From the sequence record MK234886: DNA of 64,000 nucleotides; one strand, given 5' to 3'. A program made the position numbers and the translations under genes. This stretch comes from Escherichia phage AnYang. Shown here piece after piece: positions 24,833 through 41,676 of this stretch; the first letter of the stretch is position 1, and every line of letters begins with the position of its first letter. Under the pieces are notes generated by a model. It searched no databases and was not told where the DNA came from. It saw only the letters and a list, made by a program, of their open reading frames with translations.

Positions 24833-25121
24833 ATTTTTTCCAGTCAGAAATCATATGAATCTCTTGGTCATAAGTTAAGAGACTGCGAGTAATAATACCC
24901 TTACAAGGCCCTGAGATGAACTCGAGAGTGAAGTAAGGAACCTGTTTCATTAATCGGATGCTTGGGGCATGACATCTAAAACGAGAGCCCTTAAAGGGCC
25001 CTGTCATGAACACGTATTCTAGTGGGTAAAAATAAGCATATTCAAAATTCGCGGTAAGGTCCTCTCTTCGAACCTTACGTGAGAAATAACAGAACTCAAA
25101 AAGTTCTTCATCAGTCATCAT
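24825..25121 (-). CDS. hypothetical protein
   Basis: ORF-track start is GTG; ATG ATG with AGGAA SD chosen. Confidence 0.45.
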   Translation of the reverse strand: MMTDEELFEFCYFSRKVRREDLTANFEYAYFYPLEYVFMTGPFKGSRFRCHAPSIRLMKQVPYFTLEFISGPCKGIITRSLLTYDQEIHMISDWKKYV

Positions 25122-25645
25122 TGCATTCCTATCACAAAGAACAGAGGCAAAGGCTTGTCGCCTTGGCACATAAATTTATTAATCATTACCTGATAAGCTT
25201 CATAGAACTTATCCATTGCCGGAAGACGCATCGGCTCTTCAATAATAATCAATAATCGAGTAACAGATAGTCCACGATACTTATGAAAATTGTCTTCATC
25301 AAGGAAACTGCGCACAGTATCATAGACAACAAAACCAGGACCTTCGACTTGGAGATGTGGGTATGCCTTAGAAACCTGTTTTATTACATTACAAATTTCT
25401 CGCGAGCGATGCGAAGAACTTGACATAACAATCACATCATTACCCTTAGAAACCCAATCAGCCGCGAACTGAGCAAGGGCACTTGTTTTACCTGTTTGGC
25501 GTCCGCCATCAAGTCGAAGAGTACCAAACTCTTGCATTCTTGAAGCTGGTTCATACCAGGTGTATTGGTCTGAATCTAAACGTTCAATGGCGCGTTCAGC
25601 GAAGGCGTGCATTAAGGTTAGATAAATGGGAGTTAAAAATTTCAT
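25118..25645 (-). CDS. small P-loop NTPase
   Basis: 175 aa; Walker A GGRQTGKTS, Walker B LLIIIEE. Confidence 0.55.
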   Translation of the reverse strand: MKFLTPIYLTLMHAFAERAIERLDSDQYTWYEPASRMQEFGTLRLDGGRQTGKTSALAQFAADWVSKGNDVIVMSSSSHRSREICNVIKQVSKAYPHLQVEGPGFVVYDTVRSFLDEDNFHKYRGLSVTRLLIIIEEPMRLPAMDKFYEAYQVMINKFMCQGDKPLPLFFVIGMQ

Positions 25646-25806: not shown

Positions 25807-26106
25807 TTAGAAAGAACCAGAGCCTTTAATTGTGTTCTGGCGACCTTTATTTTCTAATTCAGAGTGGTCGATTTCATATGCTTGTGCTACGCCAAAGGCC
25901 TTTTTAACTTTAGCTAAAGAACCTTTAGATGTAACAATATTAAAAGTATTACCTTTGGTAAAATCAACCAAATCGACTTGTACACCCTGTTTACCAAGGC
26001 TTGCTACAATAGCGTCAACATATTCTTGGTCTAAATTACCTTGAACTCCAATTTGAAATGCTTTAGGAGCTTTGGCTTCTGTAATAAATTCTTGATAAGT
26101 TTTCAT
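25807..26106 (-). CDS. internal-protein-like protein with capsid targeting sequence (CTS)
   Basis: 99 aa; N-terminus MKTYQEFITE matches the T4 IP leader with Glu at position 10. Confidence 0.65.
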   Translation of the reverse strand: MKTYQEFITEAKAPKAFQIGVQGNLDQEYVDAIVASLGKQGVQVDLVDFTKGNTFNIVTSKGSLAKVKKAFGVAQAYEIDHSELENKGRQNTIKGSGSF

Positions 26107-26114
26107 ATTATTCC

Positions 26115-26474
26115 TTAAAGATGGTCAAGCGCCGGGTTATGAGGTTTTTCTGCTTTAGTAGTGTTTTTATGCCAATCTGATTTGGAAACACGAATTGCAT
26201 CAGCACCATAAGAACTCTTAAGGATACCTTTTTTATTGTACACGCTTATTGAAGTAAGAGAATCGCCATTCCAAGTAGCATGGACAAAGTTAGATTTAGA
26301 TTTAAGTTCTTTAGCCAAGCTCTGGTTAGATGCCATAGAAGCGAAATCTTTACCCGTAACTTTAAAAACTTCAGATGGGTTCAACCCTTCTTTAGCTTTA
26401 GCCAACTGTTCAGGCGACATAGCTTCATTAAGACGCTGAGTTGATTCTGTAATAAATTCTTGATAAGTTTTCAT
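26115..26474 (-). CDS. internal-protein-like protein with CTS
   Basis: 119 aa; N-terminus MKTYQEFITE. Confidence 0.65.
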   Translation of the reverse strand: MKTYQEFITESTQRLNEAMSPEQLAKAKEGLNPSEVFKVTGKDFASMASNQSLAKELKSKSNFVHATWNGDSLTSISVYNKKGILKSSYGADAIRVSKSDWHKNTTKAEKPHNPALDHL

Positions 26475-26516
26475 ATTATTCCTTAAGTTGATAGAAGTAT
26501 TCTATCACGGATTTAA

Positions 26517-26933
26517 TTAAGCGTAAATAGCCTTGCCATAATATTTGTACCAAGTAGGTCGCTGTGCAATTTTTTCGTCCAAACGGGCCTGAGATATAGC
26601 TATAGAAGCTTCGTGAGGAGTATAGTCACCACGGAATTCCTGAGGAATATCACTAATGTCCTGGACCGTAGTGTCCTTGATATTAAAACCACGTTTTAAA
26701 CATTCGGCTATAAGCTCGATTTGACGTTTACGTAAAAATTCAAGCTTATCATAAAAGAAAGTAACATGGCCTGTACCGAGGATAAAAGTAGAGCTAATTT
26801 TAAAATCACGAACACGTTTACCATTAGCAACATGCTTACGAACTGTGCCGAAAACACGTGGTAATTCGCGATATTCAGCCATTAAGTGCTGGTCGGCCAA
26901 TTCAGATACTAAGGTAAGGTTGATACGAGTCAT
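26517..26933 (-). CDS. denV: endonuclease V (pyrimidine dimer DNA glycosylase) DenV
   Basis: 138 aa; near-identical to T4 DenV as recalled. Confidence 0.95.
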
Positions 26934-26993
26934 TTTAGTGTTCTCCGTGTTTGTATGAGAACACTATATCACAGCTGTTGTAAAAGTAAACTG

Positions 26994-27296
26994 TTATTTA
27001 GCTTTAATTGCTTTAGCTGCTTCGGTAGCCGCTTGCTGAAGGTCATCCATAGACATACCGAACTTAGAAGCAAAGTTATCAATTTTCTTTTCGACAGAAT
27101 TCAAAGGCTTGGCCTGTTTACCTTCATTAGCGCCAGGGAGAGCGAGAATACGCTCTTTCTCAATATAAAGGCTTACAAGTTTCTTACGGTCTTTATCTGA
27201 CAAATCATGAAATGAATGGGCCTTTTTATTTACAGCGGCTTCTAATTTACCTGCGGTTACGCGGGCTTCAGTGATAAATTCTTGGTAGGTTTTCAT
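26994..27296 (-). CDS. ipII: internal protein II
   Basis: 100 aa; MKTYQEFITEARVTAGKLEAAVNKK...; matches T4 IPII as recalled; synteny. Confidence 0.8.
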   Translation of the reverse strand: MKTYQEFITEARVTAGKLEAAVNKKAHSFHDLSDKDRKKLVSLYIEKERILALPGANEGKQAKPLNSVEKKIDNFASKFGMSMDDLQQAATEAAKAIKAK

Positions 27297-27324
27297 ATGT
27301 TTCCTTTAAAGGTAAATCGCTTTA

Positions 27325-27921
27325 TTAATTACCACGGGCTGCATTAGCAACGGCGTAAGCGTACTGAATATTAGCATCTTTAAACGTACCTTTAGAGGTA
27401 TCTATCTCTGCCTTAAAGCCGCCTTTAGCCATAACATCGGCAAATTCTTTACGGAAGGCCATTGCATCAAGACCCTTCCATGTTGATTTGTGCTTGGCAA
27501 ATTCAAGACCGGCGAAGTTGACCGCCTTAGCCAATTTATTATCAATAGTCCATTTACCTGCTTTAGGTACAAATACCGGACCTTTCTGTTTAGAGAACAG
27601 TTTTAAATTCCAGCGACGAAGGTCACCATCAGCTTTAACAAAAGCTGCGTCCAAGTTACTAGCAACAACATCCTGAATATGGCCAAATTTAAGTCCATCA
27701 GTTTCAATATTTAGGTCGTTACGCCAGCGAAGTCCTTCCCAGGCGAAAGCTTTAAAGTCGGAAGCCTTTGTAGCTAAATACCGTTCAATAGGAGTTGTTT
27801 TAGCGTCAAAACCGTTTCCTGGGTTGTCAACGCCGTTTCCTCGGTAAGTCCACTCATCTTTATTAATGCCTTGGACCTTTCCTACAGAAGCTTCGGCGAT
27901 AAATTCTTTATACGTTTTCAT
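27325..27921 (-). CDS. ipIII: internal protein III-like
   Basis: 198 aa; CTS MKTYKEFIAE; position between ipII and e. Confidence 0.65.
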   Translation of the reverse strand: MKTYKEFIAEASVGKVQGINKDEWTYRGNGVDNPGNGFDAKTTPIERYLATKASDFKAFAWEGLRWRNDLNIETDGLKFGHIQDVVASNLDAAFVKADGDLRRWNLKLFSKQKGPVFVPKAGKWTIDNKLAKAVNFAGLEFAKHKSTWKGLDAMAFRKEFADVMAKGGFKAEIDTSKGTFKDANIQYAYAVANAARGN

Positions 27922-27974
27922 ACGGGTTCCTTAAAGGTAAATATTTTAATTGGTATGTTCAAGTAACTGTAGAT

Positions 27975-28003
27975 ATACTATCACAATTCTAGGAGATGTA
28001 AAC
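27975..28003 (-). promoter_or_regulatory. T4-type early promoter
   Basis: GTTTAC -35, TAGTAT -10, 17 nt spacer. Confidence 0.45.
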
Positions 28004-28402
28004 TTATTTGTAGGTTTTCATCCAATTCTTGAACAAAGCCGCGACGTCTTTCTCTTTAACGTTCAGTTTAACGTCCAACATTTTACCACCCGCTGCTCTC
28101 GTTTGGCGAATCTTAGCAGTACCGGTTTCGCCATTCCACTCAACATAATACTGTCCAGTGTTCATTGCAATACCGTCGCCGTAGTCTTCATTTTTAGAAG
28201 TGGTGAAGGCCAGCTTCATAGTCTTAGAGACGCGGGCCTGCATGCCTGTCTTCAGAGCGTTACGAACGCGAATAACCTGAGGAGTGGCCTGGGTCAGGTT
28301 CTCATTCAGGTCTTCAGTGAACTCTTCAGATTCAAACATCGCCAAAAGTTCTTTAGATGCAGGAATTACATTCTCTGCGATAAATTCATTATAAGTTTTC
28401 AT
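28004..28402 (-). CDS. internal-protein-like protein with CTS
   Basis: 132 aa; N-terminus [10 protein letters not shown]; overlaps start of e by 14 nt. Confidence 0.6.
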
Positions 28403-28883
28403 ATGCTTTCCAAGTACCTGTTTTAAATGTTGAAATCACGCGCTTAGCACGATTAGGAGTTTGTTTATACCAACGGGATTGAGCCAGGTTAACTGCCGCA
28501 TCATCCCAACGTTTCTGTTGGAGCATACGTAAAGAGTTAGTGAACCCAGCTACACCTGCTTCACCCATCTGGAAGACCATGTTAATTAAAGCACAACGAC
28601 GAACTTCGTCCAGTACATCATAAACAGGTTTCAATTTAGGATTACGCAGAATAGCTCTACGAGCATTTTCAACTGATCGGTTAAAGAGTTGTTCAGCTTC
28701 AGCCATAGTAATACGACCGTTGCAAACTCGGCCTATAAGCTTATCTAGTTCAGCGCGAGCAACATCTTTAGATGGGTTCTTGGTAACTAACTGGCCAATA
28801 CCAATAGTCCAATAACCTTCAGTGTCTTTATAAAGATTTAAATCAAGACCTTCGTCTTGACGTAACATATCAAAAATATCCAT
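28389..28883 (-). CDS. e: lysozyme (endolysin) e
   Basis: 164 aa; T4 lysozyme fold with catalytic Glu11/Asp20 context ([21 protein letters not shown]). Confidence 0.95.
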
Positions 28884-28884
28884 A

Positions 28885-28914
28885 ATACCTCCTGAGTATA
28901 GGAGGTATTTATAT
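28885..28914 (-). promoter_or_regulatory. gene e translational-control hairpin with embedded late promoter
   Basis: ATACCTCCT/AGGAGGTAT inverted repeat holding the SD; minus-strand TATAAATA overlaps the 5' arm. Confidence 0.6.
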
Positions 28915-36694: not shown

Positions 36695-37303
36695 TTATTT
36701 ACGAGTCTTTTCGAACTGGGCTGCGTCACCTGCAAGGCGGCCGGCTTGGCGAAGTTTGTTATTGATTTCTTCGCGCATAGGCTGGGTATACTTAAGGCCT
36801 TCAACCGTCAGATAGAGACGATACAGGTCTGGGGTATCCAGGTTGTTAATGTGTTGACCATTACGAAGAGCGTTGAATTCACGAACAAGGTGTTTAGTTT
36901 CAGATTCGATTTCAGAAACTAAAGAAGCCAGTTGGTTATATTTTTTAACTATAGTGCTGGTGTCAAACTTGATTTTAGGTTTAGGAGCTTCTTTTACAGG
37001 TTCTGGTTTAGGCGTCGGTTTCGGTGTTGCAACTTTGGGCTGAGCCGCAGGTTTAGCAACAGGAGCTTTAGTAGGTTTAGTAGCGCCACCAGCTACGATA
37101 TCTTTAAAAGCTTTGGAAGCTTTGTAATATTCTTTCTGGTTACTGGTGTCGAGCCCATACATATCATAGACGTTTTTAAAGAATTCGGTGGTGGTTTTAG
37201 TCCCAGAAATTTTATCATAAGCTGCTTGCCACATATCTTTAGTCATGCGAACGCCGGCTTCACTCAGAATGCTTTCGTTCAAAAATTCATTGTAAGTTTT
37301 CAT
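36695..37303 (-). CDS. internal-protein-like protein with CTS and Pro/Ala/Lys-rich linker
   Basis: 202 aa; N-terminus MKTYNEFLNE; KPTKAPVAKPAAQPKVATPKPTPKPEPVKEAPKPK low-complexity segment. Confidence 0.6.
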   Translation of the reverse strand: MKTYNEFLNESILSEAGVRMTKDMWQAAYDKISGTKTTTEFFKNVYDMYGLDTSNQKEYYKASKAFKDIVAGGATKPTKAPVAKPAAQPKVATPKPTPKPEPVKEAPKPKIKFDTSTIVKKYNQLASLVSEIESETKHLVREFNALRNGQHINNLDTPDLYRLYLTVEGLKYTQPMREEINNKLRQAGRLAGDAAQFEKTRK

Positions 37304-37331: not shown

Positions 37332-37366
37332 TATTTATACAAAAAGCCCAACCTTTCGGAAGGGCT
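37332..37366 (-). promoter_or_regulatory. terminator plus late promoter (TATAAATA) module
   Basis: minus-strand hairpin AGCCC...GGGCT with U-run, then TATAAATA about 28 nt upstream of the CTS gene ATG. Confidence 0.5.
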
Positions 37367-38225: not shown

Positions 38226-38300
38226 TGGTATCCCGCCCTGGGATCGAACCAGGACCGCAAACTTAGAAGGATCGTATGCTATCCATTACACCAGCGGGAC
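38226..38300 (-). tRNA. tRNA-Arg (anticodon UCU)
   Basis: hand-folded cloverleaf: acceptor GTCCCGC/GCGGGAT, T-arm CCTGG-TTCGATC-CCAGG, anticodon loop CTTCTAA, encoded CCA. Confidence 0.8.
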
Positions 38301-39012: not shown

Positions 39013-39083
39013 TGGCCCTGGGTGGAATCGAACCACCATCCAGCGATTATGAGTCGCTCGCTTGACCGTCCAGCTACAGGGCC
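39013..39083 (-). tRNA. tRNA with CAU anticodon (Ile-lysidine type or Met)
   Basis: hand-folded cloverleaf: acceptor GGCCCTG/CAGGGCC, anticodon stem AGCGA/TCGCT, loop CTCATAA, T-arm GGTGG-TTCGATT-CCACC; CCA not encoded. Confidence 0.7.
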
Positions 39084-40424: not shown

Positions 40425-40697
40425 TTATTTTAGATAAATTGCATACTTTTTATAACCAGCCGTTTCGTGACGCAGTCCTTTTTCATTAGCAAAACGTTCA
40501 ATATTGTTAATTTGATTCTGGTCAAGTTCTGAAGTATCAAAAACAAAAAAGTTTCGCTTATTGCCTAAAGTTACATGATTAGTCAAATCAATGTTATAGA
40601 GATGATTTATATTATCAATCATGGTCTTAACAGATTTGTTAATTTTTACTTCTTCATTAAGAACAGATTCAGCGATAAATTCTTGATAAGTTTTCAT
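40425..40697 (-). CDS. internal-protein-like protein with CTS
   Basis: 90 aa; N-terminus MKTYQEFIAE. Confidence 0.65.
   Translation of the reverse strand: MKTYQEFIAESVLNEEVKINKSVKTMIDNINHLYNIDLTNHVTLGNKRNFFVFDTSELDQNQINNIERFANEKGLRHETAGYKKYAIYLK

Positions 40698-40998: not shown

Positions 40999-41676
<678 letters not shown>

What the first reader, a model, noticed from the sequence alone, without database searches (positions are those of the whole stretch)
25807..28402. Expanded set of capsid-targeted internal proteins around denV, ipII, ipIII and e
Five adjacent genes begin with the T4 capsid-targeting leader MKTY(Q/K/N)EFI(A/T)E, with Glu at position 10 as expected for prohead protease cleavage. 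Two match ipII and ipIII; three (25807-26106, 26115-26474, 28004-28402) have cargo sequences I do not recognise. T4 internal proteins are packaged and injected with the DNA, and IPI is known to inhibit a host type IV restriction enzyme, so novel CTS cargos are candidate injected anti-defence effectors.
Basis: partly seen in the sequence, partly recalled or inferred. Interest (0 to 1): 0.75.

Follow-up and report, generated by a model that had tools for sequence, protein, structure and literature searches.

The report
T4-type injected internal protein cassettes
A T4-like coliphage carries a shuffled set of small genes that all start with the same ten-residue tag for loading proteins into the phage head; this is a well-known arms-race gene family, and only two of its members here are still unlabelled in databases.

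Summary
Five minus-strand ORFs (25807-26106, 26115-26474, 26994-27296, 27325-27921, 28004-28402) begin MKTY(Q/K/N)EFI(A/T)E. Two more lie outside the stated range (36695-37303, 40425-40697). That is seven matches against none expected by chance.

The window is a JS98-like Dhakavirus; its proteins are identical to those of Escherichia phage AnYang. Two ORFs are ipII (92% identical to T4) and ipIII (87%). The 99-aa ORF is not new: it belongs to the named Ip7 family and is already annotated as an internal head protein. The 119-aa (phrog_3966) and 132-aa (phrog_15461) ORFs are labelled "hypothetical" in every record examined. They have no Pfam, NCBIfam, PDB or fold match.

Closely related phages differ in which cargos they carry and in what order. 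The 119-aa cassette is an insertion flanked by an exact 42-nt repeat of ribosome-binding site plus leader, so shuffling occurs by recombination within the leader.

The concept has been known since 1994. Ip1, Ip2 and Ip3 are now each shown to inhibit a distinct GmrSD type IV restriction enzyme, and a further leader-tagged protein inhibits McrBC. Packaging and function remain untested.

The parts
25807..26106 (-). Ip7-family internal head protein (99 aa; leader MKTYQEFITE, mature pI 9.0)
   Evidence: ORF. Matches phrog_2667 'internal head protein' at E 2.7e-43. It is 47-52% identical to CC31 ip7 and to the T2 and RB69 internal head proteins. Its 90% cluster includes VR7 'Ip7 putative internal head protein', and the exact sequence is AnYang QAU03587 'internal head protein'.
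26115..26474 (-). Unannotated CTS-tagged protein (119 aa; leader MKTYQEFITE, mature pI 9.5); a variable cassette missing from the closest relatives
26077..26118 (-). Copy 1 of the exact 42-nt direct repeat (ribosome-binding site plus the first 10 codons) bounding the 119-aa cassette
   Evidence: The C6 deletion end-points fall inside this repeat.
26445..26486 (-). Copy 2 of the same 42-nt repeat
26517..26933 (-). denV endonuclease V. Not an Ip; a conserved landmark embedded in the Ip hotspot
   Evidence: Matches phrog_1183 at E 5.6e-63 and Pfam Pyr_excise.
26994..27296 (-). ipII orthologue (100 aa)
   Evidence: 92% identical to T4 IPII; matches phrog_7857. T4 Ip2 inhibits the GmrSD of ECOR21 (PMC12373910).
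27325..27921 (-). ipIII orthologue (198 aa)
   Evidence: 87% identical to T4 IPIII; matches phrog_5341. T4 Ip3 inhibits the GmrSD of ECOR17 (PMC12373910, PMC9391042).
28004..28402 (-). Unannotated CTS-tagged protein (132 aa; leader [10 protein letters not shown], mature pI 9.1). Its start overlaps the end of e by 14 nt
   Evidence: ORF. Matches phrog_15461 (unknown function) at E 1.4e-90. Found in 48 phage records, all labelled 'hypothetical'. It lies directly downstream of e in Erwinia phage Cronus and Serratia phage WSPA, and the leader is kept there. The AF2 model has pLDDT 57 and gives no fold match.
28389..28883 (-). e lysozyme, a landmark. Its late promoter probably also drives the downstream Ip genes
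   Evidence: Pfam Phage_lysozyme; exact TATAAATA upstream.
28906..28913 (-). Exact T4-type late promoter box TATAAATA upstream of e
   Evidence: The scan found no terminator-like site between e and 25807 other than one inside e.
27975..28002 (-). Early-type sigma-70-like promoter (TTTACA, 16-nt spacer, TAGTAT, with TG) upstream of ipIII
   Evidence: Consensus match only.
26499..26527 (-). Early-type sigma-70-like promoter (TTTACG, 17-nt spacer, TAGAAT, with TG) upstream of the 119-aa gene
   Evidence: Consensus match only.
36695..37303 (-). Additional CTS-tagged protein outside the finding (202 aa; leader MKTYNEFLNE; Pro/Lys-rich central linker; mature pI 9.6)
   Evidence: Matches phrog_2280 (unknown function) at E 5.6e-60. 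Found in 142 phage records; all 25 listed rows read 'hypothetical'. An exact late promoter lies at 37332-37339.
40425..40697 (-). Additional CTS-tagged internal head protein (90 aa; leader MKTYQEFIAE), placed where the ipI/57B locus is expected from the gene order of relatives
   Evidence: Matches phrog_7673 'internal head protein' at E 3.5e-56. The locus assignment is inferred from ORF sizes and order compared with T4, CC31 and RB69; 57B itself was not searched in the window.

Best explanation
These genes are members of the polymorphic internal protein (Ip) repertoire of a T4-type phage (Dhakavirus, identical in these proteins to phage AnYang).

Each gene fuses the conserved ten-residue capsid targeting sequence (CTS) MKTYxEF(I/L)xE to an unrelated small basic cargo.

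Inferred mechanism, by analogy with T4 IPIII:
- The leader docks the protein onto the gp22 scaffolding core of the prohead.
- The gp21 prohead protease cuts after Glu10.
- The mature cargo stays in the head with the DNA and is injected with it into the next host.
- There it acts before any phage gene is expressed.

The most likely activity of the uncharacterised cargos (Ip7-like 99 aa, 119 aa, 132 aa, plus the 202-aa and 90-aa proteins elsewhere in the window) is stoichiometric inhibition of particular first-line host nucleases. The best candidates are variants of type IV restriction enzymes that attack modified phage DNA (GmrSD or McrBC type), one cargo per enzyme variant.

The repertoire is diversified by homologous recombination within the shared ribosome-binding-site-plus-leader DNA. 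This inserts, deletes and reorders cargo cassettes around denV and e.

Shown here: the leader, its conservation, the family assignments, the cassette polymorphism and its junctions. Inferred: packaging, cleavage, injection and target.
For: Leader and chance:
- The leader occurs seven times against zero expected.
- Tyr4, Phe7, Ile/Leu8 and Glu10 are invariant, while codons vary synonymously (ACT/ACC/ACG, TAT/TAC, ATT/ATC, GAA/GAG). This indicates selection on the peptide rather than on the DNA.
- These are the positions reported as critical for targeting and processing (PMC9026906).

Family assignments:
- ipII and ipIII orthologues are 92% and 87% identical to T4.
- The 99-aa protein falls in the Ip7 family.
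- All mature cargos are basic, pI 8.0-9.7, like T4 internal proteins.

Leader retained across divergence:
- 132-aa family homologues at 45-50% identity keep it ([30 protein letters not shown]).
- 119-aa family homologues at 37% identity keep it.

Machinery and expression:
- The close relative C6 (96.6% DNA identity over this locus) encodes the gp21-type protease and gp22-type scaffold.
- A late promoter lies upstream of e, and the scan found no terminator-like site through the cluster.

Cassette behaviour:
- The 369-bp 119-aa cassette is bounded by an exact 42-nt repeat of ribosome-binding site plus leader.
- Six different cargo arrangements were seen among Dhakaviruses.
- In IME341, ipII sits in the slot next to e with a chimeric leader, MKTYN+EFITE.

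Function precedent:
- Ip1, Ip2 and Ip3 each inhibit one GmrSD variant (PMC12373910).
- IPIII without its leader still works from the host cytoplasm (PMC9391042).
- The CTS protein Bas37_0260 inhibits McrBC (10.1101/2025.11.20.689424).
- The cargos have no enzyme domain or known fold, as expected for small dedicated binders.
Against: - There is no direct evidence that the 99-, 119- or 132-aa proteins are in virions, are cleaved at Glu10 or are injected. I found no virion proteome for a Dhakavirus in the searchable literature.
- None of the uncharacterised cargos is homologous to a functionally characterised Ip: IPI, IPII, IPIII or Bas37_0260. The target class is therefore extrapolation.
- The only exact late promoter in the cluster is upstream of e. 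The promoter-like sites directly upstream of ipIII, denV and the 119-aa gene look early-type, so late expression relies on read-through.
- The 132-aa structure model is of low confidence (pLDDT 57), so the absence of a fold match says little for that protein.
Confidence: 0.72

Rival explanations
1. The extra leader-tagged proteins are packaged, but they act only as bulk basic internal proteins (DNA counter-ions, or aids to head filling and ejection) with no specific host target.
For: All mature cargos are basic (pI 8.0-9.7), and none has an identifiable domain. T4 heads hold about 1000 internal protein molecules embedded in the DNA (PMC3012670).
Against: A bulk role would not explain the rapid turnover and mutually unrelated cargo folds among phages that are about 95% identical elsewhere. 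All three T4 Ips once thought of this way now have specific restriction-enzyme targets (PMC12373910).
Confidence: 0.12
2. The cargos are injected anti-defence proteins, but they act on systems other than type IV restriction. Candidates include other nucleases, abortive-infection or toxin-antitoxin systems, or host transcription.
For: The cargos are unrelated to Ip1-3 and to Bas37_0260. Alt, another T4 head-targeted protein, is an ADP-ribosyltransferase rather than a restriction inhibitor (PMC9026906). Comparative genomics suggests Dhakavirus DNA carries an RB69-like arabinosylation pathway rather than T4-type glucosylation (PMC13326640), so its set of enemies may differ.
Against: Every small Ip with a known target so far inhibits a type IV restriction enzyme (PMC12373910; 10.1101/2025.11.20.689424). 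Nothing in the sequences points to another target.
Confidence: 0.2
3. The shared start is only a portable translation-initiation and recombination module. Some of these proteins are ordinary cytoplasmic phage proteins that are never packaged.
For: The ribosome-binding site plus leader is conserved at the DNA level and clearly serves as a recombination substrate. Early-type promoter-like sites precede several of the genes.
Against: The leader peptide is conserved through synonymous codon changes and in distant homologues. In T4 the ten residues alone suffice to load foreign proteins into heads (PMC9026906), so any protein made late with this leader should be packaged.
Confidence: 0.05

Closest known systems
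T4 internal proteins IPII and IPIII (CTS-tagged, gp21-processed, injected GmrSD inhibitors)
   Same: The ten-residue leader is identical or nearly so. The proteins are of similar size and basicity and sit in the same denV-e locus. Two of the five genes are direct orthologues (92% and 87%).
   Different: The 99-, 119- and 132-aa cargos share no detectable sequence similarity with IPII or IPIII. T4 has only two Ip genes at this locus; the window has five.
Ip7, a polymorphic internal head protein named in the T-even and T4-like literature and annotation (CC31 ip7, VR7 Ip7; homologues in T2 and RB69)
   Same: The 99-aa protein is a family member: phrog_2667 at E 2.7e-43, 47-52% identity to CC31, T2 and RB69, and in the same 90% cluster as VR7 Ip7.
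   Different: In CC31, T2 and RB69 the gene lies at the ipI/57B locus. In Dhakaviruses it lies between vs.8 and denV. The function of Ip7 is unknown.
T4 IPI* (GmrSD CT596 inhibitor) and Bas37_0260 (McrBC inhibitor)
   Same: They follow the same design: a CTS leader plus a small unrelated cargo encoded in a hypervariable locus. They are the functional precedent for the anti-restriction reading.
   Different: No homology to any window cargo. IPI has a longer 19-residue leader.
Anti-CRISPR and anti-restriction 'islands' in other phages
   Same: Clusters of small, unrelated, fast-turnover inhibitor genes in a fixed genomic slot. PMC12373910 draws this analogy.
   Different: Here the proteins are delivered pre-made inside the virion through a shared targeting peptide. 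That shared peptide-coding DNA also serves as the recombination handle.

Membership tests
T4-type CTS-tagged internal proteins (Ips) | N-terminal ten-residue capsid targeting sequence resembling IPII/IPIII MKTYQEFIAE | tested here: met
   All five ORFs, plus two more in the window, start MKTY(Q/K/N)EF(I/L)xE. The T4 reference leaders were read from NC_000866.
T4-type CTS-tagged internal proteins (Ips) | Residues 4 and 7 (targeting) and residues 8 and 10 (gp21 processing: Ile/Leu-x-Glu, then cut) conserved | tested here: met
   Tyr4, Phe7, Ile/Leu8 and Glu10 are invariant in all seven leaders. The criteria come from Mullaney & Black 1996, as summarised in PMC9026906.
T4-type CTS-tagged internal proteins (Ips) | Genome encodes the gp21 prohead protease and the gp22 scaffolding core that the leader uses | tested here: met
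   The genes were not looked for in the window; gene order in T4 places them beyond its end. In phage C6 (96.6% DNA identity over this locus) they are annotated 'prohead core scaffold protein and protease' and 'prohead core scaffold protein'.
T4-type CTS-tagged internal proteins (Ips) | Small, basic mature protein | tested here: met
   Mature lengths are 80-192 aa and pI 8.0-9.7, against 9.0-9.7 for T4 IPI, IPII and IPIII.
T4-type CTS-tagged internal proteins (Ips) | Encoded in the polymorphic Ip loci (denV-e or ipI-57B) | tested here: met
   The locus map was compared with T4, RB69, CC31, T2, moskry, Cronus and WSPA. The 202-aa gene lies at a third position, between the two loci.
T4-type CTS-tagged internal proteins (Ips) | Physically present in the virion in the Glu10-processed form and injected with the DNA | not testable with these tools
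   Needs virion mass spectrometry. No Dhakavirus virion proteome was found in the searchable literature.
Ip7 family | Sequence homology of the cargo to named Ip7 proteins | tested here: met
   The 99-aa ORF matches phrog_2667 at E 2.7e-43, is 52% identical to CC31 ip7, and shares a 90% cluster with VR7 'Ip7 putative internal head protein'.
Characterised type IV restriction inhibitors (IPI*, IPII, IPIII, Bas37_0260) | Cargo homologous to a protein with a demonstrated target | tested here: not met
   Met only by the ipII and ipIII orthologues. The 99-, 119-, 132-, 202- and 90-aa cargos give no BLASTP match better than E 0.04, over 22 residues.
Cytosine-5 DNA methyltransferase target-recognition domain (M.HhaI residues 189-275) | Significant sequence and fold similarity | tested here: inconclusive
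   phmmer of the 132-aa protein gives E 0.004 for the whole sequence and 0.011 for the domain. Foldseek of the model against the PDB does not return M.HhaI, but the model is of low confidence (pLDDT 57).
Alt-type ADP-ribosyltransferase (one GenBank record labels the 119-aa family 'RNA polymerase ADP-ribosylase') | ADP-ribosyltransferase domain | tested here: not met

The most novel reading that the evidence does not exclude
The 132-aa protein is conserved immediately downstream of e from Escherichia to Erwinia and Serratia T4-like phages, and it shows marginal similarity to the DNA-contacting target-recognition domain of M.HhaI. On the most novel reading, this protein, or the 119-aa protein with no known fold, is not a type IV restriction inhibitor. 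It would instead be an injected effector of a new mechanistic class. Examples would be a protein that binds and shields the phage's modified cytosines, or one that disarms a non-restriction defence system at the moment of DNA entry.
Probability: 0.12. Interest if true: 0.6.

Novelty: new member of a known kind. Interest (0 to 1): 0.3.

Why it matters
Injected internal proteins are the first phage molecules to meet host immunity. Each one so far characterised defines a specific restriction-enzyme variant that it defeats.

A catalogue of leader-tagged cargos therefore gives ready-made probes for finding new type IV restriction (or other first-line defence) variants. It also helps to predict or engineer the host range of therapeutic T4-like phages.

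The practical gains here are modest:
- Two widespread families (phrog_3966 and phrog_15461), and a third elsewhere in the window (phrog_2280), are labelled 'hypothetical' in every record examined (apart from one mislabelled entry for the 119-aa family) and can be re-annotated as putative internal proteins.
- The junction analysis gives a clean example of cargo shuffling through recombination inside the leader.

It does not change the known picture.

Tried and rejected
1. C-terminal MKTYK as a recombination scar. The 132-aa protein ends ...WMKTYK, which looked like the start of a leader left behind by recombination. I rejected this because the motif belongs to the family's C-terminal helix. Variants WMKTHK, WMKSYK and WLK-K occur, and the 46%-identical Serratia WSPA homologue has WMKTYAK.

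2. M.HhaI target-recognition-domain similarity of the 132-aa protein (E 0.004). Foldseek against the PDB does not support it. The model is poor, so the question stays open.

3. Hits of the 132-aa protein to 985-aa and 1336-aa cell-surface repeat proteins (P0021, P0022). These come from one short motif (GxAxNTGxxxVEWxG) repeated five to eight times. I read it as a shared beta-hairpin-like motif, not homology.

4. The PDB hit of the 119-aa protein to 9hnh_A. It is a 27-residue helical repeat segment, with per-domain E-values of 0.73 and above, so I dismissed it.

6. Pfam and NCBIfam scans of all the cargos gave nothing above threshold.

7. Literature searches found no virion proteomics for JS98, Dhakavirus or AnYang, and nothing for 'Ip7' by name. 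Repoila 1994 is not held in the library, so I cite it only through papers that summarise it.

8. I tested whether Bas37_0260, the new McrBC inhibitor, is an Ip7 relative, which would have given the 99-aa protein a function. I retrieved its sequence from MZ501089. It is unrelated.
Full report
**What is there**

Between 25.8 and 28.9 kb, every gene is on the minus strand. The order of transcription is as follows:
- e lysozyme (28389-28883)
- a 132-aa ORF (28004-28402) whose ATG overlaps the end of e by 14 nt
- a 198-aa ORF (27325-27921)
- a 100-aa ORF (26994-27296)
- denV (26517-26933)
- a 119-aa ORF (26115-26474)
- a 99-aa ORF (25807-26106)

The five non-enzyme ORFs begin [40 protein letters not shown] and MKTYQEFITE. 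T4 IPII and IPIII, read from NC_000866, both begin MKTYQEFIAE.

A degenerate DNA pattern for the leader finds seven sites in the 64-kb window, against none in 100 shuffles. The two extra sites are full ORFs at 36695-37303 (202 aa, MKTYNEFLNE) and 40425-40697 (90 aa, MKTYQEFIAE).

**Where the window comes from**

The region matches JS98-like T4-type phages (genus Dhakavirus) at 93-97% DNA identity. The exact 99-, 119- and 132-aa proteins are those of Escherichia phage AnYang (QAU03587, QAU03588, QAU03592).

**What each gene is**

- The 100-aa and 198-aa proteins are orthologues of T4 IPII (92%) and IPIII (87%).
- The 99-aa protein hits phrog_2667 'internal head protein' at E 2.7e-43. It is 47-52% identical to CC31 ip7 and to the internal head proteins of T2 and RB69, which lie next to 57B at the ipI locus. 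Its 90% cluster contains VR7 'Ip7 putative internal head protein', and it is already annotated 'internal head protein' in AnYang. It is not a new cargo.
- The 119-aa protein belongs to phrog_3966 (unknown function). It occurs at 93-97% identity in 11 phage records and at about 37% in 78 records, mostly RB69-like Mosigviruses. In moskry, the one such record whose context was examined, it sits in the same locus. It is called 'hypothetical' in nearly all rows shown. The exceptions are two unannotated records, one where no feature lies under the match, and two evident mislabels: 'RNA polymerase ADP-ribosylase' in ESCO10 and 'endonuclease repair enzyme' in JQD51.
- The 132-aa protein belongs to phrog_15461 (unknown function). 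It occurs in 48 phage records from Escherichia, Klebsiella, Salmonella, Serratia and Erwinia phages, always as 'hypothetical'.
- Of the two extra ORFs, the 90-aa one is phrog_7673 'internal head protein', at the position expected for the ipI locus. The 202-aa one is phrog_2280 (unknown function), has an exact late promoter just upstream, and is 'hypothetical' in all 25 rows listed out of 142 matching records.

**Is the leader functional?**

The positions reported as critical in T4 are residues 4 and 7 for targeting and residues 8 and 10 for gp21 cleavage (Mullaney & Black 1996, summarised in PMC9026906). They are invariant in all seven leaders: Tyr4, Phe7, Ile/Leu8 and Glu10. Position 5 varies, and position 9 varies among Thr, Ala and Asn.

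The seven leader DNAs differ mainly by synonymous changes (ACT/ACC/ACG, TAT/TAC, ATT/ATC, GAA/GAG). This points to selection on the peptide.

The leader is also retained when the cargo has drifted far:
- 132-aa family members at 45-50% identity start [20 protein letters not shown] or MKSYNQFLDE.
- The 37%-identical Mosigvirus homologue of the 119-aa protein starts MKTYQEFITE.

All mature cargos are basic (pI 8.0-9.7), like T4 IPI, IPII and IPIII. By T4 gene order the protease and scaffold genes should lie beyond the window's end; in the close relative C6 they are present.

An exact late promoter (TATAAATA, 28906-28913) precedes e. The scan found no terminator-like hairpin between e and the end of the cluster, so a late read-through transcript is plausible. 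Early-type promoter-like sites precede ipIII, denV and the 119-aa gene. Expression timing is inferred, not shown.

**How the set expanded**

The closest genomes cover only 88% of the region, because they lack the 119-aa gene.

Alignment with C6 shows a clean 369-bp indel. Its ends fall inside an exact 42-nt direct repeat (26077-26118 and 26445-26486), which consists of the ribosome-binding site plus the ten leader codons. In C6 the upstream promoter and leader join directly to the Ip7 cargo. In the window they join to the 119-aa cargo, and a second copy of the repeat then precedes Ip7.

The window and five Dhakavirus records examined (one, JS98, with JS10-like coverage) show six arrangements:

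| Phage | Order from vs.8 to e |
|---|---|
| window | Ip7, 119, denV, ipII, ipIII, 132, e |
| C6 | Ip7, denV, ipII, ipIII, 132, e |
| LHE83 | Ip7, denV, ipII, ipIII, e |
| FB | Ip7, denV, ipIII, 132, e |
| JS98 | Ip7, denV, 132, ipIII, e |
| IME341 | Ip7, denV, ipII, e |

In IME341, ipII occupies the slot that overlaps the stop codon of e. Its leader is a chimera, MKTYN+EFITE. It carries the Asn5 found in that slot in the window, which is compatible with the overlapping TAA stop of e, followed by ipII's own second half. That places a recombination junction inside the leader.

More distant T4-like phages show the same theme. Moskry has four leader-type ORFs around denV. In Cronus and WSPA the 132-aa family protein is the only gene annotated between e and denV.

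The denV-e interval is therefore a second Ip hotspot beside ipI-57B, and the window carries the fullest version among the arrangements examined.

**What the cargos might do**

Nothing can be read from the sequences themselves. There are no Pfam or NCBIfam domains and no convincing PDB sequence match.

- The 132-aa model is poor (pLDDT 57) and finds nothing. Its marginal phmmer match to the target-recognition domain of M.HhaI (E 0.004) is therefore neither supported nor excluded.

The functional inference rests on precedent:
- IPI* inhibits GmrSD (PMC3012670).
- Ip2 and Ip3 each inhibit a different GmrSD variant, with no cross-protection (PMC12373910).
- Leaderless IPIII works from the host cytoplasm (PMC9391042).
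- Bas37_0260, a CTS protein at the ipI locus, inhibits McrBC (bioRxiv 10.1101/2025.11.20.689424).

I retrieved Bas37_0260 from MZ501089 and found it unrelated to any window cargo. No characterised function can therefore be transferred by homology.

Comparative genomics suggests that Dhakaviruses carry an RB69-like cytosine arabinosylation pathway (PMC13326640). If so, the relevant host enzymes may differ from those that T4 faces.

**Comparison with what is known, and novelty**

The design is textbook T-even biology: one shared targeting peptide, many unrelated small cargos, hypervariable loci and an anti-restriction role.

- Silas et al. (PMC12373910) state that at least ten Ips had been reported from the signal sequence alone, citing Repoila et al. 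1994.

What is arguably new is small. Two widespread families (phrog_3966 and phrog_15461), and a third elsewhere in the window (phrog_2280), carry the leader yet are described as proteins of unknown function in every record and library I examined, apart from the occasional mislabel. The junction evidence for leader-mediated cassette exchange is also clean. I rate this as new members of a known kind, with low to moderate interest.

**Confidence**

| Claim | Confidence |
|---|---|
| These are genuine CTS-tagged Ips that are packaged and processed | about 0.85 |
| They are anti-defence inhibitors | about 0.6 |
| Their targets are type IV restriction enzymes | about 0.45 |
| Overall for the combined statement | 0.72 |

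Virion mass spectrometry for the Glu10-processed N-termini, and deletion and rescue plating on wild E. coli or on cloned restriction systems, would settle each step.

Noticed in passing
window 36695-37303 (-), promoter box 37332-37339: A sixth leader-bearing ORF (202 aa, MKTYNEFLNE) with a Pro/Lys-rich central linker and an exact late promoter TATAAATA just upstream. It belongs to phrog_2280 (unknown function). It matches 142 phage records, and all 25 listed rows read 'hypothetical'. It lies outside both classical Ip loci.
   Followed up: partly
window 40425-40697 (-): A seventh leader-bearing ORF (90 aa, MKTYQEFIAE), phrog_7673 'internal head protein'. It sits where the ipI locus is expected, a few hundred bases from a 151-aa ORF (40999-41454) in the position that 57B holds in relatives. 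Its cargo is unrelated to T4 IPI.
   Followed up: partly
window 28389-28402: The 132-aa gene starts inside the last codons of e (14-nt overlap). The TAA stop of e overlaps codons 4-5 of the leader and is compatible with Asn or Lys at position 5 but not Gln. In phage IME341, ipII occupies this slot and has acquired Asn5, giving a chimeric leader [10 protein letters not shown].
   Followed up: yes
window 28884-28913 (-): Upstream of e, the late promoter TATAAATA is followed directly by a hairpin (ACCTCC ... GGAGGT) whose 3' arm contains the Shine-Dalgarno sequence. From my own knowledge, this is the arrangement known in T4 that limits e translation to late transcripts. It appears conserved here.
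   Followed up: no
window 28004-28021: The 132-aa protein ends ...WMKTYK, which mimics the start of a leader. The motif is conserved in distant family members (WMKTYAK in Serratia phage WSPA), so it is a family feature and not a recombination scar.
   Followed up: yes
window 28004-28402 (protein residues 56-100): The motif [17 protein letters not shown] gives marginal matches to the target-recognition domain of M.HhaI (E 0.004). It also matches a motif repeated five to eight times in 985-aa and 1336-aa cell-surface proteins (P0021, P0022). This is probably a shared beta-hairpin motif; it remains unresolved because the structure model is poor.
   Followed up: partly
window 38226-38300 and 39013-39083 (-): ARAGORN finds only two tRNA genes (Arg-TCT and Met-CAT). 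That is the same pair annotated in RB69, against eight in T4.
   Followed up: no
window 25118-25645 (-): The 175-aa gene just downstream of the Ip cluster sits where JS98 and T4 have vs.8. It belongs to phrog_1488 (unknown function), contains a Walker-A-like motif (GGRQTGKTS), and weakly matches a terminase large-subunit PHROG (E 0.0015).
   Followed up: no
GenBank record OM386655 (phage ESCO10), homologue of window 26115-26474: The 119-aa family member is annotated 'RNA polymerase ADP-ribosylase'. This is almost certainly an annotation error carried over from Alt through the shared N-terminal leader. No ADP-ribosyltransferase domain or fold is detectable.
   Followed up: yes
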